This document shows, piece after piece, positions 6,301 to 62,200 of a stretch of DNA of 64,000 nucleotides (its first letter is position 1; each line of letters opens with the position of its first letter). Origin of the DNA: Octopus vulgaris (lineage: Eukaryota). Both the position numbers and the translations under genes were made by a program. A model generated the notes under the pieces. That model did not search any database, was not told the DNA's origin, and saw only the letters and a program-made list of their open reading frames with translations. The stretch spans positions 29,636,001 to 29,700,000 of the forward strand of contig OX597838.1 of NCBI GenBank assembly GCA_951406725.2, in the 5' to 3' direction.

Positions 6301-9300
6301 TGGCAACTTGAAAGGCATCCAGCCATAGAAAACCTGTCTTGGTAAACTCCTGTCTGACCCATTCAAGCATGGAAAAATGGATGTTATGATGATCACGATT
6401 ACTTTTGGGGGCATTTTTGATAATAGCTGCAAAATTTGTGGGTTTTTGTAAGATAAAAAAAGAAAAAAATGCCATGAACATCATCATTACTATCATCATG
6501 ATGAAAGCCATAAAATTTTAAGGGGGTTTTTTTTCCATCCCCCCAGTGTTTATTTATTTATTTTCTTTTTTTGTTTGTTTGTTTCTAATTGTTTCTGTTA
6601 TTCTCTCCATCAGACATTCTCAAATATTTTGATGAAGGAATCCGAAATGAACCGGAAAATTCTACTGCTGTAGCAGCTGTGAAGACTTTACTTGAAATCG
6701 TCAAAGGAAGTGATGGTAAATTGCTTTCTTTCCTTTTCCTAACACAACATTTCGGCTGATATACCCTCCAGCCTTCATCAGGTTGTTTTGTGGAATCAGG
6801 TGTCTTGAGGAATGAGAACACCAGTTCGAAATTTCCCCCAAGACACCTGATGAAGGCTGAATAATAATAATAATGATAATAATAACAACATCAAAAAATA
6901 CCTTAGGAATGAGAACCCAGGTTTGAAATTTCCCCAAGACACCAAAAGAAGGCTGGAGGGTATATCAGCTGAAACGTTGTGTTAACACCAAACAAGATGA
7001 CAAATATCTGTCAAATGTCACTTGATCACTTTGACCGACCAGTCCGTCCGTCAGGCGTCCATTTGACACCGCTGGTCACAGCACGCTGTCCACTCCTCTC
7101 TGGATCGCGCCTTTCTCATCCACGTGATCCCAATCGTCCTCTTGAAATCGTCACTCCACCGTCGTGGAGGTCTTCCAGGTGGTCTTTTACGCTCACGCGG
7201 GTACCACTCGATATCTGCGTGCGTCCACCGATTATCGGTGAGCCGTGCGACGTGTCCAGCCCATCTATACTTGCTGCGAGTATACTCTGCGATGACATCT
7301 CTCACGCCGGACTTCTTTCTGATGATCTTGCTACTTATGTGCTCTCTCAACGAGATACCAAACATTGACCTTTCCATGGCTCTTTGAGCCGTTATCAGTC
7401 TTTGCTCTTATCTCTTTGTCAAATGTAAATAATGTAAACCAATCTCTAATCTTCATTTTTTTAATCTTTTATTTTTTTATTTTCTTTCAAGCCACCACAT
7501 TAACTGAACTGTTACGAAGTCTAGAAGATGCAGAGAAATACCTCGATGTACGGGATGAGAATGGAATATCAGTGCGTTCTGCTTGTCAGTTATACCTTCG
7601 CTTCATTACATTTACTTCATTAGAATTCCAGGTAAGTTCATCAAAGATTTCCATGTTTATTTATTTATTAATTTTTTATTTTTTTTGTATTTCTCCAAAA
7701 ACTTGGTGTGCGAAATTATCGGAAATGACTGGTCCAGTGGAGAACAGGGGCCAGAAATCAATTGTTCGTCTGAATTATATCAGATGTCTTGGGTCCATAA
7801 AATCGCTGGTTCCAAATGTGGTGGGGAGGTACCATTTCTGCTGGTGGGGCAGGGGTAAGGGTAGGCAATGGGAAATTTTAAACAGGGATGAAGGGTCGGT
7901 GCCTACATAGTTGTACAGGGGTGTTAAAAAATTCTATATGTGGCTGAAGATTGCTCAACATTTTAAAACTGATGTAATACTTAGAGTGTTTAATAAAATG
8001 AAGTAGCATGAAACGATTGTACTACACTACCTTGGCTATCCTTGTTGCTTATTTTGATTATAATCACTCCATTTGATTTATATGGATAATACCATACCAA
8101 ATTCTGGTGCCTTTAACTTAAGTACCATATTCATCTGAATCACGTGAGCATGGGAGGAGTGAGAGAGAGAGAGTGACAGAGTAATAGGATAGAATAGTGG
8201 GAGAAGAGGAAGTAAAAGAATGAGAGGGGAAAAAGAGATAAAAACGAAAGAGAAAAGAGATTGTATGGAGTGTGCATTAGAATTATTAAGATAAAAGTTA
8301 CTTGGAAGAGGACAAGATTCCTGGTGGTTTGCTGTGCTTGAAAAGACACGTCATGCTAAGTGAAAGCGTAGTTGCCCTTGCATAGAGGCTCGTCCCCTGA
8401 AACCCTCTCCAGCTGAGCATCCCTAACCTTGCGGGCTTGTAGGTGCTGGTGCCACATAGAAAGCACATGTGCCAGTGCCTCGTAAAAGCACCCAGTACAC
8501 TCTGTAAAGTGGTTGGTTTTAGGAAGGGCACCAAGCTGTAGAAATCATGCCAAAACAGACATAGAACCTGAACAGCCCTTCAGCTGGTCAGCTCTTCTCG
8601 AACCATCCAACCCATGCTGGACGTTAATTGATGATGATGATGATATATAAATCTCTGTTGATTCACCAGAAGTAATAAATTACAGGACTCAATACAAGTG
8701 TAGGATACTCTTTAATACATTATAACTGAAAGGCTCCAGTTTGCAGTAGTCTGGGTGAATATTCAGAGGAAAACCAGGCTTGGTTTAGTGGCTGATGATC
8801 AGAAATGAGCAATTTGGAGGACTTGAAATCAGAGGCTTTCAATTATAATGTGTGTGTGTGTTACCATCAATTAACATCTTCCTTCCATGCTGGCATGGGT
8901 TGGACAGTTCAACAGGAGCCTACACCAGACTTCTGTGACTGTTATGGCAGGATTTTTACTGCTGGATGCCCTTCCCAACACCAACCACTCAGCAGAGTGG
9001 ACTGAATGCTTTTTATGTGGCTCGGGCGAGGTCAGTTTTGACAGAGTTTTTGCAGTTGAGTGTCCTTCCAAATGCCAACTACTTTACAGTGTGGACTGAA
9101 TGCTTTTAAGTGGCACCAGCACTAGCTGGATCGCCAAAGAACTTTGCAAGACAAAAAGGGGAGGTGGGGGCATTGGAGGAGGTGATCATGTATCAGGTAA
9201 TGAAAGGTTTGAATGTGACAGAGAGACAGAAACAGGTGTTTTGCTGTAGAGAAGGTATAAGGTTACCTGGCCAGAGAGAGAGAGAGAGTAATCAAGAATG

Positions 9301-12300: not shown

Positions 12301-15300
12301 CTCAGTACTTTGTCATCTCATCTCAAAAGGTTCAATGTCTTCAGATCGTCCTTCAGTACTTCGTTCCATGTCTTCCTGGGTCTCCCTCTTTGATGTGTCC
12401 CATCTAGTTTAAGAGATTGGCACTTCTTTACGGAGATGTCAGCATCCATCTTCTCCAGATGACCAAACCAGCACAATTTCTCTTGCACCCTATCTCTACT
12501 TCCTAAACAAGATAAGCCTAACTTCTCTCTCAATACACTTTGTTGAACATGTACAATTACCAACGTGTTCTGGATGAAAATTTCAACTTGTATGTCGGAA
12601 TACAGAGTAAATGTTTTTTGTTGTTGTTCTGAGTCTTTCTCTCTCTCTCTCTTTTCACAGACGTGTTTTGTGCAATGAGCTAAAGAAAGCAAACATCCCT
12701 ACTCTGTTAATTCTAGATGCTGCTGTGAGGTGAGTATATGAATAATTAGTATGATTTTAATTACTGGCATTAATTATCTTTATGACAATAATCATGTTAT
12801 TAAGGAACTAATGAGTTATGAATAATGCTTAAGTATATATATATGTGTATATATATTTATTTCTTTACTACCCACAAGGGGCTAAACACAGAGGGGACAA
12901 ACAAGGACAGACAAAGGGATTAAGTCTATTACATCGATTCCAGTGCGTAACTAGTACTTAATTTATCGACCCCGAAAGGATGAAAGGCAAAGTCGACCTC
13001 AGCGGAATTTGAACTCGGAACGCAACGACAGACGAAATACGGCTACGAATTTCGTCCGGCGTGCTAACGTTTCTGCCAGCTCGCCACCTTATATATATGT
13101 GTATATATCTATATATGTTTGTATATAATTATCTCTCTCTCTTTGTCTATATCTATGTACAGTCCACGAAGGAGATCCAGAGAATCTCAGTATAAAAGAC
13201 ACTTAGTAGTGCTCACAAAGATTCAAGCTTAGATTCCAAAGTCTTTATAGGGGATTGATTCCACAGGGTAAAGAATGACTATAAGAGGGATCAAGTTGAG
13301 TGGATATAGGGGCAGTTATATATATATATTAACCCTTTAGCATTCAGATCATTCTGTTAAATGAAATGCTTATTTATTTATATGAAATTAATCCTGGATT
13401 ATCTTGTATTTTTGAGATTTTGATGTTATAACTGACATTGTAGGGTAGGTGTGAGAGGCAAGATCTGGCCGGTTTAAATGCTAAAGGGTTAAATATAATA
13501 CTTTGGGCATGAAACACAAAATATAAAATAATAATGAAATTATTGTATACAGTGCTCAGGTGCACCACAACTTGTCAGAGTATGGATGGAAGCACTCCGT
13601 CGGTTACGACGACGAGGGTTCCGGTTGATCCGAATCAACGGAACAGCCTGCTCGTGAAATTAACGTGTAAGTGGCTGAGCACTCCACAGACACGTGTACC
13701 CTTAATGTAGTTCTCGGGGATATTCAGCGTGACACAGAGAGTGACAAGGCCGGCCCCTTGAAATACAGGCACAACAGAAACAGGAAGTAAGAGTGAGAGA
13801 AAGTTGTGGTGAAAGAGTACAGCAGGGATCACCACCATCCCCTGCCGGAGCCTCGTGGAGCTTTAGGCGTTTTCACTCAATAAACACTCACAACGCCCGG
13901 TCTGGGAATCGAAACCGCGATCCTATGACCGCGAGTCCGCTGCCCTAACCACTGGGCCATTGCGCCTCCACACTTGTCAGAGTATATGCAGTAATGTACA
14001 AATGTCTGGAAAGCGAACAATGCATGAGTCAGATACATGCTTGTGTGTGTATGGAGGGGAGGAGAAAATCAGGTGTAGTGTTGGCGAATCTCAGAAAGCA
14101 TGGAAGTCTTGAAGGATGCAGTGCTCCGACAACTAACAACTGATGCCGGCAGTTTGTTCCATGCTTCAGCAACTCTCAGCGTGAAAAAATGTTTCCTGAA
14201 GTCATGGGAGCTGTGCTGTTTTCTGGCTTTGTAAATATGTCCACGGGTGTTAGATGGGTGTATACATGAAGTCGGCTGCTGCGACTTTCCATCTAGATTG
14301 GTGTGCTATTTCTTGCAGAGAATAAGTTTGGAACCCAGACAACTGCAGAAAGCCATCAGAGAAATAGGTCTGACAGCTGAAACTAGCTCAACTATGGTTG
14401 ATAAGAGACCACAAATGGAGCCCATCAATAGGTAAAGACTAGCTCAAGTCCTCGCTGCCCCACTCAGGCGAAGCGTATACACTAAAGGGTGAAATGCGGT
14501 TCTATATTTAAGAGATGAGGAATTATGTACGTTGTTTACATTTGACGGATATTTGTCCTCATCTTGTTTGTTGTTAACACAACAATTTGGCTGATATACC
14601 CTCCAGCGTTCATCAGGTGTCTTGGGGGAATTTCGAACCTGGGCATATGGCTTAGTGGTTAAGAGCGCGGGCTACTAACCCCAAGATTCTGAGTTCGATT
14701 CCAGGCAGTGACCTGAATAATAATAATAATAACAACATCGAAAAATACCTTAGGAATGAGAACCCAGGTTCGAAATTTCCCCAAGACACCTGATGAAGGC
14801 TGGAGGGCGTATCAGCCGAAACGGTGTGTCAACAACAAACAAGATGAGGACAAATATCCATGCAATGTAAATAATATAAAGGGTGAAATGTTTGTGACCC
14901 CGAGACACCTACTGCTGAGATGGAAAGGTTTCCAGCATTGCATTAGATTTAGAAGAGCTTGCAAAACCTCTCAGTAGCTCTTGCAGTTTTTGAATGGGGC
15001 AGACCATCTTTCATGTTTATTTTACCTGTGTGCACCTGTATTCTTTTACAGTTCTGTCATGCCAGATGTTGATCTGGTTCTTGTTGGTGCTGAAAGTGTT
15101 GTAGAAAGTGGTGGAATCATCAACAGGGTAATGTATTGCTTTTTTCCTCTTTTCTTTCTTTCTTTTTTTTTTTTTTTTTACCAATTCTTAGTTGTCTTTT
15201 ATTTGTTAGATGAATCAGATGGAGTCATGCTATGTCCTCTCTCTGCCTGCTCTAACCCTACTACAGTGGCCTCTGCTCATCGGAACTACATCTTGATTAT

Positions 15301-35877: not shown

Positions 35878-38523
35878 GGCGCCATAAACTCTGGAAGAAA
35901 ATAAAAACAAAAATCCATTAACATGTTGAGACATACTGATTTCAAATTTTGACACAAGGCCAGCAATTTCGGGGAGATGAGGTAAGTTGATTACATCAAC
36001 CCCAGTACTTAACTGGTACTTAGTTTTATTCTCCCCGAAAAGATGAAAGGCAAAAATCAACCATGGCAGAATTTGAACATACTGAGACACATCAAAATGA
36101 TTTGTAGAAAATATTAACTTCAGTGGCACATAAAAGGCACAATTCGAGTGTGATCGTTACCAGCGTCACCTTACTGGCACTTGTGCCCATGGTAGTAGGG
36201 TGCCAAGAGCACCATTCGAGCGTGATCATTGCCAGAGCGGCTAACTGGCTTCCGTGCCAGTGGCACATAAAAGGGCACCATTCGACTGTGATCGTTACCA
36301 GCGTCGCCTTACTGGCACCTGTGCCGGTGGCATGTGTAAAAAGATTCGAGCGAGGTCATTGCCAATACCGCCTGACTGGACACCCCGTGCCGGTGGCACA
36401 TAAAAAGCACCCACTACACTCTCGGAGTGGTTGGCGTTAGGAAGGGCATCAAGCTGTAGAAACTCCTGCTAGATCAAGATTGGAGCCTGGGGCAGCCATC
36501 TGGTTCGCCAGTCCTCAGTCAAATCATGCAACCCATGCCAGCATGGAAAGCGGATGTTAAACAATGATGATGAATTTTAAAGGTGAAAAATATTTTAATA
36601 TTTTACATTTTTACAATTAACCTTTAATAAGGGAAAATGTTTATTCATCTTTAAAGACGGCATCAACAGCAGAGGTTTGGAAGTGCTGCCCCTCAACTAT
36701 CCCCGCTTAATGGGAAAAGAAACAGCTTCCTTTTTTTCTTGCCTAGATATCTTGTTTCAGTGATTCATACTATAAAATAGTTAGCATTTGGCAGCGTGCC
36801 CAGCCATAGAAACAATGCCAAAGTAGATACTGGCACATAATGCAGTCCTCTGATCTGTGACTCTATCCTCTGACTCATGTCAGCATGAAAGTCAAACATT
36901 AAACCAGTAGTCCCCAAACCTGGGGTCTGCAAAGGTAGTACTGGGGGTCCATGAACTAAATTCAAAATTTCATATATATTTATATATGCATAGGAGTGGC
37001 TGTGTGGTAAGTAGCTTGCTTACCAACCACATGGTTCCGGGTTCAGTCCCACTGCGTGGCACCTTGGGCAAAATGTCTTCTACTATAGCCTCAGGCTGAC
37101 CAAAGCCTTGTGAGTGGATTTGGTAGACGGAACCTGAAAGCCTGTCGTATATATATGTGTGTGTGTGTGTGTTCGTCCCGTCCCCCCCCATCATCGCTTG
37201 ACAACTGATGCTGATGTGTTTATGTCCCTGTAACTTAGCAGTTCGGCAAAAGAGACTGATAGATTAAGTACAAGGCTTACAATGAATAAGTCCTGGAGTT
37301 AATTTTCTCGGCTAAAGGCGGTGCTCCAGCATGACCACAGTCAAATGACTGAAACAAGTAAAGAGAGTAAAGAGTATATATATATATATATACTCTTTAC
37401 TCTTTGTACATATATATATAAGAATATCCTGAGGTCTGTGGAAAAACTCATTTAAAGAAAAAGGGGTTCTTGGAAGTGAAGGGGTTGGGAACCACTGCAT
37501 CAAACGATGATGATGATGACGATATTGTGTAATGTGACCTTCCACCCTCCTCCCCACCACCACCACCTCCAGGACAGTAGGATATGACCTGTAAACGATG
37601 TCGCGGCTATATTTTACTTCCTTTCTGTAAAAACTGCAACCTACCCTTATTGTAACGTAAAGAGCTGCAAAAGCATAGACTCAATTGACTAAACACTCAG
37701 CACCGAATTGGCAACGAAACCCTCCGTCATTTACTTCCACCAACTATATGTAAACGAAGTCTACATTCATATATAAATGAGTAACAGTTATATCATGGCG
37801 AAGTCATTTGAAACACACAAACATACTGTTCTAATACCTAATGCTAAGGTTAGTGAAAGTGGTATGTAATGGCCTGGCTCTCATTCCCTTACGACGGCGA
37901 GTGTCCCAGCTGATATAATCAACAGAACAGTCAGTTCATGAAATTCATGTGTAAGTGGCTGAGCACTCCACTGACACGCATACCCGTAAGAGAAATTCTG
38001 TGTGAGAGGGGGAAAAAAATCACATCTTCTCAATTATAAATTTATTAACATTTCGAACCCCTTTGTAACTTTTGAGCCACCCTATATATATGTATGCAGT
38101 ACGATTTGTCAGTGAATAGGTCACGGTCTCAAAGCGACGAAAATATTTTGACAAATTAAACTTAAATGTTGAAGTGAATCTAACGGCTTTTGTGTGTTTC
38201 TTAAATGGCTTACAAACACCTTCCACGCTGCAATTGTTTTCGTTCCAGCACACGATCTCAAATCAAATATATATATATATATTCGGCTCATGATCGTAGA
38301 GTTGTGAGTTCGATTTACGACGGCGCGTTGGGCCTTTGAGCAAACACTTTATTCACATCGATCCAGTTCACTCAATTGGCAAAAATGAGTAGTATTTCAA
38401 AGGGCCAGCCTTGTCATATTGTGCCACGCTGAATCTCCTTACGTGTGTCTGTGGAGTGCTCAGCCACTTACACCATAATTTCCCAAGCAGGCTGTTCCAT
38501 CGGATCAACTGGAACCCTCATCG

Positions 38524-40399: not shown

Positions 40400-41280
40400 G
40401 ATCAGTCGATTACATCGACCCTCCTGTGCATAACTGGTACTTATTTAATCGACCCCGAAAGGATGAAATGCAAAGTCGACCTCGGTGGAATTTGAACTCA
40501 GAACATAAAGACAGACGAAATACCTATTTCTTTACTACCCACAAGGGGCTAAACAAGGACAGACAAACGGATTAAGTCGATTACATCGACCCTCCAGTGC
40601 ATAACTGGTACTTATTTAATCGACCCCGAAAGGATAAAAGGCAAAGTCGACCTCGGCGGAATTTGAACTCAGAATGTAACGCCAGACGTAATACCTATTT
40701 CTTTATTACCCACAAGGGGCTAAACAAGGACAGACAAACGGATTAAGTCGATTACATCGACCCTCCAGTGCATAACTGGTACTTATTTAATCGACCCCGA
40801 AAGGATAAAAGGCAAAGTCGACCTCGGCGGAATTTGAACTCAGAATGTAACGCCAGACGTAATACCTATTTCTTTATTACCCACAAGGGGCTAAACACAG
40901 AGCGGACAAACAAGGACAGACATAGGTATTAAGTCGATTTCATCGACCCCAGTGCGTAACTGGTACTTATTTAATCGACCCCGAAAGGATGAAAGGTAAA
41001 GTCGACCTCGGCGGAATTTGAACTCACAACGTAACGCAGACGAAATACCTATTTCTTTACTACCCACAAGGAGCTAAACACAGAGCGGACAAATAAGGAC
41101 AGACATAGGTATTAAGTCGATTTCATCGACCCCAGTGCGTAACTGGTACTTATTTAATCGACCCCGAAAGGATGAAAGGTAAAGTCGACCTCGGCGGAAT
41201 TTGAACTCACAACGTAACGCAGACGAAATACCGCTAAGCATTTCGCCCGGCGTGCTAAAGTTTTTGCCAGCTCGCCACCA
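40400..41280 (-). repeat. Tandem array (about 5 units of 170-180 bp) of SINE family B
   Basis: Repeated AACTGGTACTTATTTAATCGACCCCGAAAGGATGAAAGGCAAAGTCGACCTCGGCGGAATTTGAACTC; the core resembles the Meta-SINE domain as I recall it. Other copies near 12860-13090, 17115-17430, 26545-26775, 27865-28230, 57870-58465, 61995-62225. Confidence 0.8.
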
Positions 41281-42226
41281 TAAATTGGAATCAATAATAG
41301 TCCACCCTACATCTCTGTTTATCTCGTTGTGGCACTCTGTCGGTTACGACGACGTGCGTTCCAGTTGATCCGACCAACGGAACAGCCTGCTCGTGAAATT
41401 AACGTGTAAGTGGCTGAGCACTCCACAGACACGTGTACCCAACAGGAAGAAAGACTGAAAGAGTACAGCAGGGTTCGCTACCACCCCCTGCCAGAGCCTC
41501 GTGGAGCTTTAAATACTCACGATGCCCGGTGTGGAAATCGAAACCGCTACCCTAACCACTGGACCATTGCGTCTCCTCTTCTTATCTAAAACGCGGTATA
41601 ATGCCTCTATTAATTATCTTGCTAACGATTGTATTGATATGCAAATTAGGCCAGGTTAATGAGAGCGTGTGCAACATAATGAATAGCTATAGGGTGTTAT
41701 GTTCTCTGAAGGAAATATATAACTCAATTCTGATAAAGAAATCAATAAATCCTGAATGAGAATGGAGCTAGGAGTAATGGTAATTCAGCGATGATTTTAT
41801 GTTCCCCACAACTCTAAAACGCCTTATTAATTAGAATTCCTTAGATTACCAGGGCAGATGTCCCTCCAGCACAAGGAACCCATCTTCCATAAAGCATCGT
41901 TTGGGTATAGGTCTTTGCTTCAAGAGTTTGCATCACTCCTCAAACGCTAGTCTTGCGAATTGGCAAGGGTGATTTCTAGGCACCGAGGAGGTCCGGCATT
42001 CTTCTAGTTGCATCAATCCACTGCTCCACATTGGCACTTTGGCACTTTATGATCGACTCCCGAAAAGATGACAAGCAAAGTCGACTTTGATGAGATTTGA
42101 GCTCATAGCATAGAGGGAGAGAACAAATACTGCGAGGTAACCAGATGCTCAAACGACTCGGCCAATTTCACACACACACACAGAAAGAGAAAGACGCAGC
42201 AACACACGTTTACTGGTACTACTTAA

Positions 42227-47734: not shown

Positions 47735-50700
47735 GACTGGCTTCTTTCAGTTTCCGTCTACCAAAACCACTCACAAGGCTTTGGTTGGCCCTAGGCTATA
47801 GTAGAAGACATTTGCCTAAGGTGCCATGCAGTGGGACTGAACCCGGAACCATGTGGTTGGGAAGCAAGCTTCTTACCACACGGCCACTCTTGCACCTGTT
47901 AATTTTATTTTAATTATTTCAACAAGCACGATGGTGCTCCAGCATGACCACAGCTGCATGGCTGAAACGAATATAAGTATGTGAGACCACTGTGAATATG
48001 TTTCGATCTCAGGACCCCAACGGCAAACCTGCTCCCTGCCCCCACCCCAGGCTGTTATTTCTTCTTCAGATCCCAACAATTTCTGATCCTCTTCACATGT
48101 TCGGTGATTTGTTGTGCTTGAGAAAACTCACCCAGCTAAGTAAAATCCAGGTCGTAAAGGCCATGTCCTTCATGTCCATGACCCCTTACCCCCACCCTTC
48201 ACCCTACCCCACAACTCATCTTTCTGACGCCTCCCCCTGTCCTCCCCACCCATGGTCACCACTACCCATACTCCTTTTTCCTTCCGTTCTCCACCATGTA
48301 CCTCCAGCATGCAATATGTCCCCGTTGAATCCTTCGCCCACTTACCCTGTCCAGTCCCCTTGTCCACTTTAATATATTCTCCTGTGACATAGGTGTACAG
48401 CCCCTGTCACATCTTCACCTCTCTCCATGCACCCTCTCCTGCCATCTGAGGTAACCATGTTTCTCTGCAAGGCACCGTCGTTGTACCTCAAGACTACTCT
48501 ATCCACCCCACCCCCCATACACACACACTTCACTTGACATGTCTTGCCTTGTAGATTACATGGTGACCTCACTGGTGCTGGTGCCACATAAAAAAAAGCA
48601 CCCAACACACTCTGTAAAGGAAAGACATCCAGCTGTAGAATCCATGCCAAAACAAACAGCAGAGTTTGGTGTGGTCTTCTGACATGCCAGTTCCTGTCGA
48701 ACCGTCCAACCCATGCCAGCATGGAAAATGCACGTTAACCCTTTCGTTACTGTATTTTTTTTTTGAGATGCTCTGTGTTTCTTTCAATTACTTTAAATAT
48801 AACAAAGCATTTAGTAAAATAACTTTGTTATCATTAAGCTAGTGTTAGGAACATAAATTGTGACTAAGGTTTGGTGAAAGATTTTAATTCAAAACTTATG
48901 GAAACAAGACATTTGTACTCAGAGCCAGACCCAGTTTCAGCCAGGTTGGTATTGAAAGGGTTAAGAATTGTTCCTCTATTATATATTTCAACCCTTTTGT
49001 TACCATATTTCTGTTGAGATGCTCTGCGTTTCTTTCAATTAATTTTAAATATAACAAAGAATTTATAAAATAACTTGGTTATCATTAAGCTAGTGTTAGG
49101 AACATAAATTGTGACTAAGGTTTGGTGGAAGATTTTAATTCAAAACTTATGGAAACAAGACATTTGTACTCAGAGCCAGACCCAGTTTCAGCCAGGTTGG
49201 TATTGAAAGGGTTAAGAATTGTTCCTCTATTATATATTTCAACCCTTTTGTTACCATATTTCTGTTGAGATGCTCTGCGTTTCTTTCAATTAATTTTAAA
49301 TATAACAAAGAATTTATAAAATAACTTGGTTATCATTAAGCTAGTGTTAGGAACATAAATTGTGACTAAGGTTTGGTGGAAGATTTTAATTCAAAACTTA
49401 TGAAAACAAGACATTTATGTTACAGAGCCAGAACCGGTTTCAGCCAGGTTGGTATTGAAAGGGTTAAATGGTGATGAAGATCACACACACAGACACACAT
49501 ATCTTTTACCTTTTACTTGTTTCAATCGTTAGGCTGTGACCATGCTGGGGCACCACCTACAGACACAATTCTTACATCTACTTTTCCAAGCTGTCATGGC
49601 TGAAATAAGTTGATCACAACCCAACATCATTGCTTCCTTTAAGAGGATAATCCTAAGATTATCCCCCGTCACTTTTACCCACATCTTCTGTATATCCTCT
49701 CTGACAGCCTACTTCTACCTTGCAACGTTTCACACTTTTCTGCCCCCTTCTACAGGTGCCCCCTCTTTCTTGTACATTTATTTACGCTTTATATATTTCA
49801 GGAAGAGGTCGTAAAAATTTCGACCGAGACTTTGGTGGGAATCACATAAGAGGCAATCGAAGGCTTAACGATCAAGGCAATAATGACAGTGGTATGTTGT
49901 TGTTGTTGTTGTTACGAACTTCACACAGCATGGTGATGATGATGATGGTGTAGGCATGAGAGAGACTGCACTAAATGCTTAAGAGCATCATATATCCTGC
50001 TTTGCCTTTCTGCTTCTTATAATAATCCCTATAATAATTTTTCCTCTAATCTGTCTGTCACATAAATTTTGCTTTGGTTTGCACTTACTCACCTCTTTTT
50101 CCTTCCTTCCAGAATGTATGTATGAGTGTGTGACCGCGTGTGTGTATCGTTAACGATATTTTTTCTTCTATCTTCCCTTCCTTGGATCTTTCCTTTTCCT
50201 ATGTTTCTGCCGAAGAGCTCTGCTCAAAACGCTAAATCCTCCTTCTTTCTTTCCTTTCCTTAGCGTCTAATAACACTATACTTCTTCCACGTCCTCGCAT
50301 TGTTGTGTTTTCATGTTTGGATTAACTTTATATATATCTTTATATATATATATGAGGGTGAGTCAAAAAGTAATGTCATTTTGCTTAGGACAGGTATAAT
50401 TACCAACACAGGAACATGTATCATACATCAAAATGAAGCTGGTCCTCTGTGGATCACATCCCTACTTCTCAACATAGTCATCGTTTCTCTCAATAGCAAT
50501 GTGCCACCTTCAAATGAGAGCATGTATCCCTGCCCCGTAAAATTCTACTTAGCGTCTTCAGACTATCATCTCTTTGGCCCCATAAAAGAGGGTTTGAGAG
50601 GCAAACATATGTTTATATGCATATATCTATCTATCTCTCTCTCTATATATATATATATATCTTTATATATATATACAGACATACACACACACATATAGAC

Positions 50701-53067: not shown

Positions 53068-55498
53068 TCTTTGATAACTGATGTCTCCCTGTCCGTGTGT
53101 CTCCTTAATAACCAATTTCATTCTCTCATTAACAGCGTCCAATGATAAAAATGGACAGTCGGCAGGAAAATAACATCCGGGACATCTTGGATCAGTTTGG
53201 ATCCGGCCCATCCAGCAGCTCTCACCCTCATCAGTACCACCCCAGTTCCCACCACACCACCGACATCAGGGATTGCCGTGACAACGACAGAACACAGAAA
53301 GCCTCGTCGGACGACTGGTTCAACATGGACTCAGCCCACGAGGAGACCAAACCCAACAGCAGCAGCAAGTCATTGGAATCTCCCGTTTGGCACACCCCGT
53401 CTCCAAGAATCAAGGAAAATGCTTATAATAAAGATGGCGACAACGACGAGGGTGAAGTTGGTCACGATGACAATGATAATGTCGAAATGTCATCGCAGTT
53501 GGCCGAGAGAAGCAACAGCTGTGACATCTTGGCTTCTGTCACAGAAGTGATGAAGTTTTACAAAGAAGAAACCGATTATGGAATTGATCCAGCATCAGAT
53601 GACTTCGGTAATTGTTAGACTGCCATTTTTTTGTTTTTGGAATTTTTTTTTCTTACTCTTTTTACTCTTTTTACTTGTTTCAGTCATTTGACTGCGGCCA
53701 TGCTGGAGCACCGCCTTTAGTCGAGCAACTGGACCCCGGGACTTATTCTTTTGTAAGCCCAGTACTTATTCTATCGGTCTCTTTTGCCGAACCGCTAAGT
53801 GACGGGGACGTAAACACACCAGCATCGGTTGTCAAGCAATGCTAGGGGGACAAACACAGACACACAAACACACACACACATATATATATATACATATATA
53901 CGACAGGCTTCTTTCAGTTTCTGTCTACCAAATCCACTCACAAGGCATTGGTCGGCCCGGGGCTATAGCAGAAGACACTTGCCCAAGATGCCACGCAGTG
54001 GGACTGAACCCGGAACCATGTGGCTGGTTAGCAAGCTACTTACCAAACAGCCACTCCTGCGCCTTTTGGGAATTTTTTTTTTTTAGTTCCCCCCCCCCCC
54101 GCCAGTCTTTTAATATCTTTCTTGTGATACCCACCTATCTGTATCTAACTCGGGTGTAAAACCTGCTTAATTTTATGTTTCCTCTGATTCATCATCATCA
54201 TCGTTTAACGTCCGCTTTCCATGTTGGTATGGGTTGGACGATTTTGACTGAGGGCTGGCGAACCAGATGGCTGCACCAGGCTCCAATCTTGATCTGGCAG
54301 AGTTTCTACAGCTTGATGCCCTTCCTAACGCCAACCACTCCGAGAGTGTAGTGGGTGCTTTTACGTGCCACTCGCACAAGGGCCAGTCAGGCGGTACTGG
54401 CAACGGCTATACTCAAGTGGCGTTTTTTTTACATGCCACCTGCACAGGAGCCAGCCCAGTGGCACTGGCAACGACCTCGCTCGAATGTTTTTCACGTGCC
54501 ACCGGCACAAGTGCCAGTAAGGTGACACTGGTAAAAGGCAACCAAAAGAGGTTGCACTTTGACCTCGTAAAACCCTCACCTAAAACCCTCTCCAACTACG
54601 ACCACCCAAACAGACCCATGGGTTGGAAGGTTGTCACCTGGGTGTAGGGGAATCACCAACAATTAAATCTTCCATTACTTTCAAAATTCTTGATCGTCTT
54701 TCAAAATTACTTGAAACTTAGATATTGTATTTCACTAGAAATATAGCAAAAAGGGTTAATTCTGTTTTTCTTTCTCTCCCTCTTTCCTCTCTTTCCCTCT
54801 CACCAGAGAAATGGAGGAAGAGAGAGAGAGAGCATCTCATTGTGTATTTTTCTTATTTTTATTTTTTCTTTCTTTCATCTCTTTCCTTTTCTTCATTTTT
54901 CTTTTCCTTTCATTTCACTACACTTCACTTTTTCTTCCTCCTTTTCCTCTCTTCTTTCCTCCTCCTTCCTCCTCCCTCTTTCCCCTTCCTCTTCTTCCTC
55001 CCCCTTGTTCCTCATTCCTCCCCATCATACTTACACTTTCCTCCCACCCCACTTTTTCTCAATATTTTTCCTTTGGTTCTTTCAGTGCCAAGTTCCAGTA
55101 TCAAATGCAATCCCACGCTGGATGCAGCATACCAGAAGGACCTCCAAGAACGGTCAAAGAGTACCAGCTACCAAAAAATGCTTCAATTTCGGAAGAAATT
55201 GCCATCATACGACATGAGAAAGGTTAGCAACACTTTGGAACATTTTACCCATCACACCCACCACCACCAACTCGTTTTGTTTTTGTTTTAGCATTATGTA
55301 TGTATGTATGTATGTATGTATGTATGTATGTATGTATGTATGCATGTATGTATGTATGTATTTTGTATGTATGCATATATGTATGTATGTATGAATGTAT
55401 GTATGTATGTATGTATGTATGTTTATGTATGTATGTATGTATGTATGTATGTATTATGTATGTATGTATGTATGTATGTATGTATTATGTATGTATGC

Positions 55499-55531
<33 letters not shown>

Positions 55532-55666
55532 CGTATTATGTATGTATGTATGTATGTATGAATGTATTATGTATGTATGCATATATGTATGTATGTATGC
55601 ATGTATGTATGTACGTATTATGTATGTATGTATGTATGTATGTATGAATGTATTTTGTATGTATGC

Positions 55667-55697
<31 letters not shown>

Positions 55698-56036
55698 AAT
55701 GTATGTATGTATGTATGTATGTATGTATGTATGTATGTATGTATGTATGTATGTATGTATGTATGTATGTATGTATGTATGTATGTATGTATGTATGTAT
55801 GTATGTATGTATGTATGTATGTATGTACCATTTCTGCTCGACACAGGCGAAATTTACGGAAGAGGGAACTGTTCGATTAGCTTGACCCCAGCACGCAACT
55901 GGTACTTAATTTATCGACACCGAAAGGATAAAAGCAAAGTCGACCTCGGTGGAATTTGAACTCAGAAAGTAAAGACAGACGAAATGCTGCACCCTGCTGT
56001 GTGAGGGGCAAATGTGCTGACGTCATCGTCCTAGGT

Positions 56037-56075
<39 letters not shown>

Positions 56076-56142
56076 GACACACATACATATACACACATAC
56101 GAACACAGATATATACCTACATATGTACATTATATATATAGC

Positions 56143-56206
<64 letters not shown>

Positions 56207-57759
56207 AAAGGGCTTAGTAAAATAATTACTTTGCCGCATACTGAACTCATTAGAAATAGCAGCTAAAAAACTTTTTTTAAAGCTATTTCTAATATAAAAA
56301 AATCTCATCATATAGTGTTTGCTTAATTCAACTCACAAAAGTTTGAGGGGTAAGGACATCAAAAAATCAAATGCAAAGGTTATTTGAAGACGTACGTTTC
56401 AAGATTAGTCAAAACATTACTTCTATCATCAGCTCAGAAACTCCTTGGTTTGGATTTGGAAACACTGAAAGTAAGAGCATACCCTTTCGGCTTCATCGCT
56501 TTCGAAGATCTGCTCCTAACTAACAGTGCCAACAAACTCAAATAAGCAAGCGAAGAATTTCTGTTCTCCCCTTTCCACCAGCGTGGGTTAAAATCATCAA
56601 AACGCAACTTCTTATTTCGGTAAAATCCGAAGCATTAATTGAAGGAGATTAATTATAATTTCAACAATTGGGGTAAAATTAATTAATTATTAATCAATTT
56701 CACCAAGTGTTCAGTATGCAAAGGGACCATTTAAGGCGAATTCAAATTATTACATTATATAAAAGGGCTTAGTAAAATAAATTACTTTGCCGCATACTAA
56801 GACTCATTAGAAATAGCAGCTAAAAAACTTTTTTAAAAGCTATTTCTAATACTTAAAATATCTCACTCATATAGTGTTTGCTTAATTCAACTCACAAAAG
56901 TTTAGGGGGTAAGGACATCAAAAAATCAAATGCAAAGGTTATTTGAGAACGTACGTTTCAAGATTAGTCAAAACGACACTTCTATCATCAGCTCCAAACT
57001 CCCTTGGTTTGGATTTGGAAACACTGAAAGTAAGAACATACCCTTTCGGCTTCTCATCGCTTTCGAAGATCTGCTCCTAACTAACGGTGCCAACAAGCTC
57101 GATAAACAGCGAAGAATTTCTGTTCTCCCCTTTCCACCAGCGTGGGTTAAAATCATCAAACACTATGCTTATTTCGGTAAAATCCGAAGCATTAATTAGA
57201 GGAGATTAATTATAATTTCGACAATTGAGGGTAAAATTAATTAATTATTAATCAATTTCACCAAGTGGTATGCAAAGGGACCATTTAAGGCGAATTCAAA
57301 TTATTAATGATTTTTAACCCACGCTGGTGGAAGAGGAGAACAATTCTTCATGCTTGCTTATTTGGTTGTTGGCACTGTTAGTTGGTAGGAGCAGATCTTC
57401 ATCTTTCAGTGTTTCCAAATCCAAACAAGAGGTTCTGAGCTGATGATAGAAGTGTCGTTTTGATAATCTTGAGCAGTACACGTTCTCAAATAACCTTTTT
57501 GCATTTGATTTTTTGATGTCCTTACCCTAAACTTTTGTGAGTTGAGCAATAAACACTATATGATGAGATTTTTCTTTAAGAAATAGCTTTAAAAAAAGTT
57601 TTTTTAGCTACTATTTCTAATGAAATTCAGTATGCGGCAAAAGCAATTTATTTTACTAAGTACTTTTTTATATAATGTAATAATTTGAATTCGCTACTCC
57701 TTGCTAGACACTTGGTGAAATTGTTAATAATTAATTAATTTTACCCTCAATTGTTGAAA

Positions 57760-57815
<56 letters not shown>

Positions 57816-59160
57816 AAAAAGAAGGTTAAATTTAATTATAAGTAATTGTATTTCTTTTATTCTTTTAGTTTTTTCAGTCATTTGAAGCCAAGGTCGAATT
57901 TGCCTTTCATCTTTCGGGATGATAAATTAAGTACCTATTTCTTTACTACCCTACAAGGGGCTAAACATAGAGGGGACAAACAAGGATAGACACACGGATT
58001 AAGTCGATTACACCGATCCCGGGATGTAACTTCTGGTACTTATTTAATCGACCCCGAAAGGATGAAAGGCAAAGTCGACCTCGGCGGAATTTGAACTCAC
58101 AACGGCGCGGCAGACGAAATACGGCTACGCATTTCGCCCGGCGCTAACGTTTCTGCCAGCTCACCGCCTTAATAAATTGAGTACCAGCTACGCACTGGGG
58201 TCAATATAATCAACTAACCCGTTTGTCTGTCCTTGTTTGTCCTCTCTGTGTTTAGCCCCTTGTGGGTACTAAAGAAATAAGTATTTCGTCTGCCGTTACG
58301 TTCTGAGTTCAAATTTCGTCGAGGTCGACTTTACCTTTCATCCTTTCGGGGTCGATAAATTAAGTACCAGTTACGCACTGAGGTCGATGTAATCGACTTA
58401 ATCCGTTTGTCTGTCCTGTTGTCCCCTCTATGTTTAGCCACTTGTGAGCAGTAAAGAAATAAGAAATTCTTCATTTTTATAGCACAGTTGTACAGTAGGT
58501 GGGGGAGGCAGGTTACATGGAAGACCTTCGGTTACCTTCTCCAGCAGCTACCTTATACCCAGCAGTATCAAGACAATTGTGGGAGACAGCTTTCTCTTGG
58601 AATAACCATATTCCTTAGCAAATCATCGATAATCGGAGCGATGATTGCAGCAGTGTTCAAACATTCCATTGAACGTTTTTTAGAGGATTCTTAACCGAAC
58701 CTATAAGTACATAACAATTTTGTTTTTGTCGTGACCTCATTTTCATCAACGATTAAAAATATGTTTTGGCCAGCCAGACAACTCTTTATAATTATTTACA
58801 TTATTTACATTTGATGGATATTTTGACCTCATCTTGTTTGTTGTTAACACAACGTTTCGGCTGATATACCCTCCAGCCTTCATCAGGTGTCTTGAGGGAA
58901 ATTTCGAACCATGGTTCTCGTTCGTCTTCACAACTGGTTCGTTTATTTACATCCCCATAACTTACTGGTTTCACAAGAAGAAACTGATAGAATAAGTACC
59001 AGGCTTATCAAAAAATAAAAAGCACTATGCAGTGTCTCATATTTTGTTTGCCCCCACACTGTGCTCTATCAATTTATCTTTGTGTGCGTGTGTGTGTGTG
59101 TGTGTGTGCGTGTGTGTGTGTGTATGTTTGTGTATACATATATTTTTATATACATATATG

Positions 59161-59217
<57 letters not shown>

Positions 59218-62200
59218 ACACACATATATATATAACATAGTTCTTGAACCGGTACTTCAAGTAACGACTAGGGTAGGGTAACTGACTGCTTATTGTGATC
59301 ATTCGTCTTTTGGTTTCCTGTAGCTTTGCTCTCTTTTACAAACCCAGTGAACATATATTTCCTATTTCAAAGAGAAATTCAAACCATAGATATAAGACCC
59401 AAGTTAAAAAGTGCCAACAATTCACTTCTCTGGTTGACATTAGATGCCCCACCCACAACAAGGGCCTTAACTCTCACATTTAGAGCTCCATGACCTTCAT
59501 TTTTTAGGGCAAATCTTTTTAACAGGTTCAATAACACTGGAATTATGGAATATGCGAATAAAAATCAGTAGTATGGGATACATGTGGCACGATTACAATT
59601 TTTTAGGGTGTGTAAAGAGGGACAAAGCCCTCATCTGCAATATTGATGAAATTCGAAACATAGAAATTCCAGCTCATAACAGAAAATATAACAAGAAAGT
59701 CTAATTCTTCAATTGAATGTAACCGGTGCTCCAGCATGGCCACAGTCAAATGACTGAAACAAGTAAAAGAGAGTATGTAATAAAAGGTTTTTCAAAGAAA
59801 TTTAAAGTGCTTTTGTGATGACTGTAAACCTACTTTTGGGGCCACCCTGTATACATATATACATTTGTTCATTCATACTTGTATAACAATTGCAGGTACC
59901 TCAATTTATCTTGGACGACTACTTAGAACAAGGAATGGGCTCAACGTGTAGCATCATCTGTACACAACCTCGGCGAATCAGCGCTGTTTCTGTAAGTAAA
60001 TAATTCCTCTCTCCATCTCTCTCTCTTCCTCTCTCTCTCTTCATCTCTCTCTCTTCCTCTCTCTCTCTTCCTCTCTCTCTCTTCCTCTCTCTCTCTCTTT
60101 CTTCTCCAAATATCGCCTCACTCCACACGCATATCTTGCTTAAAACAGTCATTATAACAAACCACAAATGAAGCAGTTATGTAGTTGATCATTCTGTTAG
60201 AAATAGAAGCTAAATCTCCCTCATATCACATCTTGTGGTCATCTCATTAAATGCACTGCTAACACAGTAGGATACGGTTATTGACTTATAAAAATGTTTA
60301 ATACACTTAGTAGTATATTATGGTTGCTTAACGAAATACCATGTCCTTACAAGTTGTTAATATTTATGTACGAGCTTTCAAGTGTGTGTTTAATCTGTAA
60401 AATTGGTTTATCCAATAATGTTATACCACTATATTAGTGTATATATAAGTTTGTGGATAATAATATATATTATATTATGGAGATGTACTTGCATAGCGAG
60501 CGACTTGATCTGAGATCGTGTGCTGGAACGAAAACAATTGCAGCGTGGAAGGTGTTTATAAGCCATTTAAGAAACACACAAAACCATTAGATTCACTTCA
60601 ACATTTATATTTAATTTGTCAAAATTATATATTATAATAATATATTAGTGTATATATGAGTTTGTGGATAATAATATATTATATATTATACCGCTATATT
60701 TAGTGCATATATGAGTTTGTGGATAATAATATATTATCTCTAACCGCTCAGTCGAAGTCGACTCTCGGTTACTTGTTGGATCAGTGTCCTCCAGTCAATT
60801 CTATCCTGGGCCGCTTCTTTCAGATTGGCTATATCCATTCCGGTATCACTCTTGATGGTGTAAGCCAGCGGGTTCTTGGTCGGCCTCTTCCTCTCTTGCC
60901 ACTGACCATTCCGAGCATGATGTCCTTCTCCAGGGAGTTTCTCCGCATAATATGACCGAAATATGCCAATCTATGCTTGGTGATCCTAACTTCTAGCGAC
61001 ATTTTTGGCCTTATCTGCTTAAGGACTTCTCCAACACCATTAGTGTATATATGAGTTTGGATAATAATATATTATATATTATACCGCTATATTTAGTGGC
61101 TAATGAGTTCGTGGATAATAAATGGGTTGGATGGGTCCTGATGAAGGAGCAAAAACTCCAGAAGTATGGCATATATGCCCATTAACAATTTTTCATCTTC
61201 AATCTCATCGTTGTTGTTTACATCAGGCGTCTCGGATATGAAACGTCATTACGAAAATCAGTGCTGGCTTTAATCTTTATAGAAAATCTGTAGAGATAAC
61301 GTTGAGAAGTGATTTAAATCGCACTGCTAACACAGGAGAACAGAATATCCACTTAATATATTTTGTAGCATATGATGGTTGCATTACGAAAAATGGGGTC
61401 CCTACGGGTCATTGATATTTATGTACCTATTCTTATGCTTCGACTGGACAAATGCCAGCAACACTTCCTGGCTTTTGGGTACCTCCAGCAGAGTCCCATC
61501 TGTTGCAAAAATTCAGGCCCTGTCTTCAATCTAGAGAGACATTTCATCCCTTTCTCCTCCCAGTAAAAGGGCCTCTTATATGGGGTCAGAGATACAGTGT
61601 CTAGGGGAAAAAAGGTGGAATGGTCATGGCTGGAAAACCTTTTGATCATAGGTTTTTGCTCAATCAGGAGTAGTAACAAGAAGCTTAATGACCACAGCTG
61701 ATGCAATCACTAAGGCATTTCTCATTTTCTCCACCACCACCACCCTCACCACTGCCCCTACCCTCACCACCACCACCACCTCCACTCTCTCTATATAAAC
61801 CATCTGTGAAAAAAATCACTGCTGTCCAAACCGTTTCCTCTCTTTCTTTCCTAAATTGTTTCGTTGAATTTGATGGGAAGGTTTTGCAAGGGGTGGGGGT
61901 ACAGTGGTCAAGACCTTTGCAAGAGGTCACACTCCCAGTCGTTGATGAAATTGGATGACCTTTGCTGGCCCTTTGACAAAACTGGTGACCTTGATGAGCT
62001 GGCAGAATCATTAGCACTCTGGGCGAAATGCTTAGCGGTATTTCGTCTGCTGTTATGTTCTGAGTTCAAATTCCACCGAGGTCGACTTTGCCTTTCATCC
62101 TTTCGGGGTCGATAAATTAAGTACCAGTTGTGCACTGGGGTCGATGTAATCGACTTAATCCCTTTGTCTGTCCTAGTTTGTCCACTCTATGTTTAGCCCC

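What the first reader, a model, noticed from the sequence alone, without database searches (positions are those of the whole stretch)
58846..58893. Intact minimal hammerhead (H1) predicted to work as a dimer
Seen: GACAC-CUGAUGA-A-GGCUG..CAGCC-GAAA-CG-UU-GUGUU on the minus strand. Stem III is reduced to the palindrome ACGU, which cannot close intramolecularly but can pair between two copies, as described for minimal Penelope-associated hammerheads. There is one extra A between A9 and G10.1, an insertion known to be tolerated in a viroid hammerhead. Predicted cut after GUU (inference).
Basis: partly seen in the sequence, partly recalled or inferred. Interest (0 to 1): 0.7.

Follow-up and report, generated by a model that had tools for sequence, protein, structure and literature searches.

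The report
Octopus jumping-gene fragment with hammerhead ribozyme
This is a real, textbook-shaped self-cutting RNA motif, but it sits in a leftover and probably silent piece of a small octopus jumping gene; the more interesting point is that the complete jumping gene seems to join a tRNA-like promoter to the end of a Penelope-type retrotransposon.

Summary
The motif is real. At 58846-58891(-) it matches the published consensus of Penelope-type minimal hammerheads point for point; the 'extra A' is part of that consensus. It is the only intact example among 6 related repeat pieces at 3 loci of this Octopus window (0 of 400 shuffles gave one). This copy is most likely a fossil. It is 5'-truncated, has no Pol III boxes upstream and no tandem partner, lies antisense in a DHX36 intron, and is predicted to misfold in its own flanks. 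Among the copies the core is no better conserved than the flanks (7/71 vs 20/354 changes), and no covariation is seen. A complete relative at 14497-14876, bounded by a 14-bp target-site duplication, reads: inverted copy with a 33-nt extra tail, tRNA-like A/B-box head, (AAT)n, hammerhead-bearing end. That is Penelope insertion anatomy with a SINE head. Translated copies show the family in two Octopus species and the head joined to the end at a second locus. The best reading is a decayed piece of a tRNA-headed, non-autonomous, Penelope-mobilised element. No autonomous partner was found, and cleavage was not tested.

The parts
58846..58891 (-). Minimal type I hammerhead of Penelope type, core intact (copy F); predicted cut between 58851 and 58850
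   Evidence: published consensus
58790..58923 (-). Copy F: 5'-truncated end segment (pLTR-like) of the repeat; lacks the head and the AAT linker; no convincing target-site duplication; boundaries approximate
58895..58895 (-). U found only in copy F among the 5 pieces that cover this site; it completes a competing hairpin with loop II
58926..59018 (-). Fragment of a different abundant repeat, cut off where copy F begins
55223..59895 (+). Interval between mapped DHX36 exons (aa 251-296 and aa 321-356); copy F lies in it, antisense to the gene
14483..14496 (+). Left 14-bp target-site duplication of the complete element A
14497..14643 (-). Inverted 5'-truncated copy (A_inv) with a 33-nt tail (14497-14529) beyond the end of the forward copy; hammerhead core mutated
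14641..14715 (+). tRNA-like head with A box (14648-14658) and B box (14693-14701); shares 3 nt (14641-14643) with the inverted copy
   Evidence: (Rfam tRNA 16.6 bits, below the 29-bit cut-off)
14716..14753 (+). (AAT)n tract and short linker, also present at locus B
14754..14876 (+). Forward end segment (A_fwd) with hammerhead; position 16.1 changed
14877..14890 (+). Right 14-bp target-site duplication of element A
6740..6795 (-). Locus B, inverted piece (B_inv); palindrome changed and helix I interrupted
6808..6859 (+). Locus B, partial tandem piece (B_mid) that stops inside helix II
6860..7018 (+). Locus B, AAT tract, linker and forward end segment (B_fwd); core mutated; its tail resumes at 7417-7438 after an inserted LINE-like fragment

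Best explanation
58846-58891 is the inherited minimal hammerhead of a Penelope-type pseudo-LTR, carried by a decayed, 5'-truncated copy of a small non-autonomous Octopus retroelement. The full unit, seen at 14641-14876 (about 236 nt), is tRNA-like head + (AAT)n + linker + hammerhead + tail. Shown: the anatomy, the copies, the target-site duplication, the intronic antisense position. [quoted passage not shown] Reverse transcription starts at more than one site in the tail, which makes the 33-nt extension optional. Template switches at short microhomologies produce the inverted and partial-tandem 5' pieces. Uncleaved RNA is the usual template, because copies F, A_fwd and A_inv run 61, 51 and 84 nt past the cut site. 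The hammerhead would cleave only weakly, as a dimer or with protein help, in transcripts of master elements. Copy F itself is probably not transcribed in the ribozyme sense and is decaying neutrally; its core is intact by chance.
For: The motif fits the published PLE consensus, including U-rich 5' and A-rich 3' flanks. Six pieces lie at 3 loci, each 3-9 differences from the majority letter. Element A has an exact 14-bp duplication abutting both ends. An inverted truncated 5' copy and a 30-40 bp optional tail are described as PLE hallmarks (PMC8557442), and two internal RT starts explain the tail (PMC11167929). An A/B-box pair lies upstream of 1 of 6 pieces (A_fwd), and none lies within 1 kb of F. 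The unit has no run of four T. A second locus has the B-box half of the head joined to AAT, linker and end segment, preceded by an inverted tail piece: protein P0005, whose head peptide needs 3 changes in 36 nt to fit 14680 onward, against 8 for the next best place. The family shows up in O. sinensis and O. bimaculoides gene models. PLEs cover 6.83% of the O. vulgaris genome. Signs of neutral decay: 4 of the 4 other full-length motifs carry core or palindrome changes, CpG sites change more often (5/30 vs 29/532, p=0.028), and the core is not more conserved. In its flanks F folds helix II with probability 0.05-0.17, against 0.96-0.98 when 58895 is kept unpaired.
Against: No RT or GIY-YIG ORF was tied to this end segment: the open frame through it found 1 hit among 3 candidates, a host gene model rather than a PLE. 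Only one complete element is seen in DNA, and the second head junction is known only from a peptide of unnamed source. The tRNA match is below the Rfam cut-off. A 5-nt direct repeat flanks the head at locus A, which would also fit a separate insertion. Six pieces give little power for the conservation test. The misfolding is a thermodynamic prediction; the isolated 48-mer forms helices I and II with probability 0.76-1.0 per pair. No expression data were available.
Confidence: 0.75

Rival explanations
1. Copy F is a working ribozyme in place: an antisense RNA from the DHX36 intron pairs with a second copy in trans and cleaves.
For: It is the only piece of six that passes the descriptor. The dimer with ACGU/ACGU helix III is sterically nested and could be scored. 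A related PLE hammerhead cleaves when its protein binds (PMC11167929).
Against: No tandem partner and no A/B boxes; antisense to the host transcript; competing hairpin. The active dimer scores -22.9 kcal/mol against -25.8 for two monomers and -29.8 for the best cofold of the 48-mer, in a model that ignores core tertiary contacts. Published dimers of this class cleave poorly.
Confidence: 0.07
2. The pieces are plain solo pLTRs of an autonomous PLE. The tRNA-like head is an unrelated SINE fragment captured or inserted at locus A and is not a regular part of the family.
For: Most minimal hammerheads in animal genomes are dispersed single motifs from truncated PLEs. 5 of 6 pieces lack the head. 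A 5-nt direct repeat flanks the head. Similar heads belong to other repeats in the window.
Against: One 14-bp duplication encloses the inverted copy, head and forward copy together. P0005 shows the same head-AAT-linker junction at another locus. The head has no SINE body of its own. P0006 shares only the AAT tract and linker, so it neither helps nor hurts.
Confidence: 0.2
3. The element is an ordinary LINE-mobilised tRNA SINE that happens to carry an old hammerhead in its body.
For: A tRNA head, a 14-bp duplication and short repeats at the 3' end of F and B_fwd are SINE-like. SINEs are abundant in Octopus.
Against: Inverted pieces at 2 of 3 loci, a partial tandem, and an optional 33-nt tail match PLE insertions. 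The hammerhead sits 51-84 nt from the end, near the 3' end as in PLEs.
Confidence: 0.1
4. A chance match with no ribozyme ancestry.
For: Rfam gives no hammerhead hit; no covariation.
Against: 0 of 400 shuffles gave a strict hit; every consensus trait is met; the surrounding anatomy is PLE-like.
Confidence: 0.02

Closest known systems
Minimal type I hammerheads of metazoan Penelope-like elements (Cervera & De la Pena 2014, PMC4209133)
   Same: CUGANGAH core with the extra base, G10.1-C11.1, helix II of 6 bp, helix I of 5 bp, palindromic 15.2/16.2, mostly dispersed single copies, some pairs on opposite strands 100-700 bp apart.
   Different: No Octopus example in the supplement searched (0 occurrences); no PLE ORF shown here; the full unit carries a tRNA-like head.
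Poseidon PLE of Anolis carolinensis, PAc (Frangieh et al. 2024, PMC11167929)
   Same: Hammerhead upstream of an optional 30-40 bp tail; insertions retain sequence past the cut site.
   Different: PAc is autonomous and its ORF starts in stem II. The open frame through this end segment matched no PLE protein.
Hydra-1_Obim hammerhead of Octopus bimaculoides (Craig et al. 2021, PMC8557442, File S2)
   Same: A PLE hammerhead in the same genus.
   Different: Different sequence, with a full 4-bp stem III, so not this family.
SINE-like hammerhead repeats of Schistosoma and animal non-LTR retrozymes (PMC6765202; PMC7229834; bioRxiv 2026.07.22.740005)
   Same: Short, non-coding and hammerhead-bearing; a Pol III promoter in Schistosoma; proposed to depend on PLEs.
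   Different: Those are mainly head-to-tail tandem arrays. Here the copies are dispersed, inverted or truncated, with a minimal core, and none has two intact hammerheads in tandem.
Non-autonomous Chlamys elements such as MRC1 (PMC8557442)
   Same: Non-autonomous PLE passengers that share the 3' end with an autonomous partner.
   Different: Algal; most Chlamys lack canonical hammerheads; no tRNA head is mentioned in the passages seen.
Octopus tRNA-derived SINEs (Ohshima & Okada 1994; seen only as reference entries and one sentence on OR2 in PMC4758252)
   Same: tRNA-like head, same genus.
   Different: Could not be compared. This element may already be catalogued as a SINE without its hammerhead having been noted.

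Membership tests
PLE-type minimal hammerhead | Core boxes CUGANGA and GAAA with U16.1 and H17 | tested here: met
PLE-type minimal hammerhead | Extra base between 9 and 10.1; G10.1-C11.1 pair | tested here: met
PLE-type minimal hammerhead | No intramolecular helix III; palindromic 15.2/16.2 | tested here: met
   ACGU at 58852-58855
PLE-type minimal hammerhead | Covariation in helices I and II across the family | tested here: inconclusive
   0 of 11 pairs change on both sides in 6 rows; too few and too similar to be informative
PLE-type minimal hammerhead | Self-cleavage as a dimer | not testable with these tools
   needs an in vitro assay
Penelope-like element insertion | Partial tandem and/or inverted 5'-truncated copy next to the 5' end | tested here: met
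   loci A and B, 2 of 3 loci; not at F
Penelope-like element insertion | Optional 30-40 bp tail at one end | tested here: met
   33 nt at 14497-14529
Autonomous Penelope-like element | RT plus GIY-YIG ORF between pLTRs | tested here: not met
   no ORF inside element A or next to F; not filed as autonomous
Non-autonomous PLE passenger | 3' end shared with an autonomous PLE in the same genome | tested here: inconclusive
   peptide search found no PLE; no Octopus DNA collection was available
tRNA-derived SINE | 5' tRNA-like head with A and B boxes | tested here: met
   at locus A only; absent at F
tRNA-derived SINE | Pol III transcription and a LINE-derived 3' tail | not testable with these tools
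   no T4 run inside the unit; no LINE library to compare
Non-LTR retrozyme | At least two consecutive tandem units with complete hammerheads | tested here: not met
   definition

The most novel reading that the evidence does not exclude
Octopus genomes carry a SINE-like family with a tRNA-derived Pol III promoter that is mobilised by a Penelope-like element rather than a LINE. It keeps the partner's minimal hammerhead and tail as its recognition end, and it inserts with PLE-style inverted copies and target-site duplications. This would be a compact unit of about 236 nt that defines the cis-requirements of PLE mobilisation. The five searches aimed at such an element and a broader one listed no paper describing it, but Repbase, Dfam and subscription papers could not be checked.
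Probability: 0.5. Interest if true: 0.6.

Novelty: new member of a known kind. Interest (0 to 1): 0.35.

Why it matters
The hammerhead itself is ordinary: thousands of such motifs per genome are reported across animals (PMC4209133), and this copy is probably inert. Its value is as a marker of a small element that seems to join a SINE promoter to a Penelope end. If confirmed genome-wide, that would extend the SINE-LINE partnership to PLEs. It would also give a short natural substrate for the open question of whether PLE hammerheads matter for transposition: do intact cores spread better than broken ones?

Tried and rejected
Rfam: no hammerhead family at E<=10; the many microRNA hits are microsatellite artefacts. 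ARAGORN: 0 tRNA genes in the window. Exact 25-nt scan of the bacterial and archaeal genome collection: 0 loci; the viral and metagenome collections stayed unchecked. Target-site duplication at F: the best flank repeat was 9 nt and overlapped the element's own tail, so rejected; none at locus B as a whole. Search for an autonomous partner through the open frame of the end segment: 1 hit among 3 candidates, a host gene model. The accession list for that protein could not be obtained, so its transcript support is unchecked. Short motif searches in two supplements found 0 matches; the Craig et al. file is held cut, and the file searched for the O. vulgaris paper is only 5,371 characters long. Luense et al. 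2017 was not held and is known here only through citations. Supplements of the 2026 bioRxiv preprint were not seen and may list related families. Tandem retrozyme reading: rejected. Dimer energies from nearest-neighbour folding: helix III adds nothing in that model (-22.9 vs -23.2 kcal/mol), so they are treated as uninformative.

Full report
Observation. The minus strand of 58846-58893 holds the motif as described. Helix I has 5 bp, the core CUGAUGA is followed by one extra A, and helix II has 6 bp with an 8-nt loop. GAAA-C-G-U-U follows, with the predicted cut between 58851 and 58850. A descriptor search of both strands found this single hit; 0 of 400 shuffles gave a strict hit and 1 of 400 a relaxed one. 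Rfam found no hammerhead family at E<=10.

Class. Cervera and De la Pena 2014 (PMC4209133; I read main-text parts 1-2 of 4, a supplement search and supplement part 1 of 3) give the metazoan PLE consensus as U-rich flank, helix I, CUGANGAH, G...C, GAAAN, palindrome, NUH, helix I, AU-rich flank. The motif meets each element. They list the base between 9 and 10.1 as a conserved trait. They report no cleavage for a monomer and low cleavage for dimers and trimers, and say most such motifs are dispersed single copies from truncated PLEs. The word Octopus does not occur in their supplement.

Host context. One exon in the window matched DHX36 of Octopus sinensis at 99% (1 hit among 187 candidates), so the window is from an Octopus species. 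DHX36 exons map on the plus strand. The motif lies between the exons ending at 55222 and starting near 59896, so it is antisense to the host transcript. The exon for aa 297-321 was not found in the window.

The repeat. The motif belongs to a segment of about 130 bp, present as six pieces at three loci: F 58790-58923(-); A 14497-14643(-) and 14754-14876(+); B 6740-6795(-), 6808-6859(+) and 6907-7018(+). Locus A is complete. An exact 14-bp duplication (14483-14496, 14877-14890) encloses an inverted copy, a tRNA-like head with A and B boxes, an (AAT)n tract, a linker and a forward copy. The inverted copy runs 33 nt beyond the end of the forward copy and joins the head through a 3-nt overlap. The head scores 16.6 bits against Rfam tRNA, below the cut-off, and resembles other A/B-box heads in the window. 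The forward unit has no T4 run. Craig et al. 2021 (PMC8557442; passages, supplement searches and part 2 of 59) describe partial tandems, inverted 5'-truncated copies and a 30-40 bp one-sided tail as PLE hallmarks. Their Octopus hammerhead (Hydra-1_Obim) is a different motif with a full stem III. Frangieh et al. 2024 (PMC11167929; passages and part 2 of 4) tie the tail to two internal RT start sites. They also found that the hammerhead cleaves only with protein, that cleavage is not needed for insertion in vitro, and that no RNA-seq reads end at the cut site. In line with that, copies F, A_fwd and A_inv extend 61, 51 and 84 nt past the cut site.

Copies elsewhere. No eukaryotic DNA collection was available, so I searched with reading frames across the element. 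The frame through the end segment gave 1 hit among 3 candidates: an O. sinensis gene model whose first 35 residues are this repeat read in the ribozyme sense (89% identity). It is not a PLE protein. The frame through head and linker gave 2 hits among 6 candidates. One is an O. bimaculoides tectonic-3 model ending in AAT tract, linker and end segment. The other, P0005, is of unnamed source and reads inverted tail piece, B-box half of the head, AAT tract, linker, end segment. Its head peptide fits 14680 onward with 3 base changes in 36, against 8 for the next best place in the window. Its tail peptide fits the inverted tail at 14516 with 3 changes in 24, against 4 for the next best, which is weaker support. 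The family therefore exists in at least two species, and the head junction recurs.

Is copy F functional? The evidence is against it. Of five pieces spanning the whole motif only F passes the descriptor; the other four each carry core or palindrome changes. Differences from the majority letter were 7/71 in core plus palindrome against 20/354 in flanks and loop (p=0.19), and 14/208 for the whole motif (p=0.59). CpG sites changed more often (5/30 vs 29/532, p=0.028) (pieces trimmed to their BLAST-supported spans). No pair of 11 covaries. This looks like neutral decay, though six pieces give little power. F has no A/B boxes within 1 kb upstream and no convincing duplication, and it starts where another repeat breaks off. 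As a bare 48-mer it folds helices I and II well. With 20-60 nt of its own 5' flank, helix II drops to probability 0.05-0.17 through a hairpin completed by a base private to F at 58895; keeping that base unpaired restores 0.96-0.98. The nearest related piece on the same strand is about 44 kb away and mutated.

Literature on novelty. Searches combining Penelope, SINE, tRNA and related terms listed 0, 1, 0, 1, 5 and 3 papers. None of the titles, abstract openings or passages seen describes a tRNA-headed PLE passenger. Cephalopod plus hammerhead ribozyme listed 2 papers. The nearest analogues are the Pol III-transcribed hammerhead repeats of Schistosoma (PMC6765202, passages) and the non-LTR retrozymes proposed to depend on PLEs (PMC7229834 passages; PMC7761336 passages; bioRxiv 2026.07.22.740005 part 1 of 5 and passages), which are tandem arrays. 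The O. vulgaris repeat paper (PMC13282606; passages and supplement search) gives PLEs 6.83% of the genome and does not use the word ribozyme in its main text. PMC10886601, PMC4758252, PMC3531059 and PMC8967140 (passages) added nothing on this family. Luense et al. 2017, De la Pena and Flores 2001 and Ohshima and Okada 1994 were seen only as citations. Repbase and Dfam could not be consulted, so the element may already be catalogued.

Verdict. This is a new Octopus member of a well-known motif class, in a copy that is most likely inert (confidence 0.75). The tRNA-headed, PLE-mobilised family is the lead worth following (probability 0.5). Overall interest 0.35.

Noticed in passing
window 55223-59895: The DHX36 exon for aa 297-321 (the stretch with the helicase GKT motif) is not found anywhere in the window, and 56196-57764 holds three similar blocks; possibly a local assembly fault or a deletion.
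   Followed up: partly
window 7019-7416 (-): 3' fragment of a LINE-like element, with a 118-codon open stretch and a 10-bp target-site duplication, inserted into the tail of B_fwd. The RTE label is recalled; Pfam gave no significant match.
   Followed up: partly
window 14497-14876: The inverted pair folds into a long hairpin (-200 kcal/mol, z=-20). It lies just upstream of an exon matching Pfam IF-2B (15053-15127), probably in an eIF2B-alpha intron, so it could be a dsRNA/A-to-I editing substrate (inference).
   Followed up: partly
protein P0004 (O. sinensis LOC115224785 isoform X2), outside the window: The gene model starts with 35 residues that are this repeat read in the ribozyme sense, ahead of a signal-peptide-like stretch of a Cys-rich membrane protein. 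It is a likely mis-predicted start, and a candidate mRNA that carries the hammerhead in its 5' region.
   Followed up: partly
protein P0006 (O. bimaculoides tectonic-3), outside the window: The model's C-terminus is read from the AAT tract and linker of this repeat and ends where the frame meets the core's UGA.
   Followed up: partly
window 57887-58476 and many other places (e.g. 27861-28229, 40404-41287): A very abundant repeat of about 180-300 bp, often in tandem or inverted pairs; recalled as an Octopus SINE, not tested.
   Followed up: no
window 21626, 27059, 31430 (-): Further tRNA-like A/B-box heads belonging to other repeats.
   Followed up: partly
window 35392-36156 (-): An open frame with a Cys/His-rich zinc-finger-like stretch, recalled as ADA2-like; not tested.
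   Followed up: no
window 29598-30303 (42-bp unit, about 17 copies) and 48763-49467 (251-bp unit): Tandem arrays; the first has long open frames on both strands.
   Followed up: no
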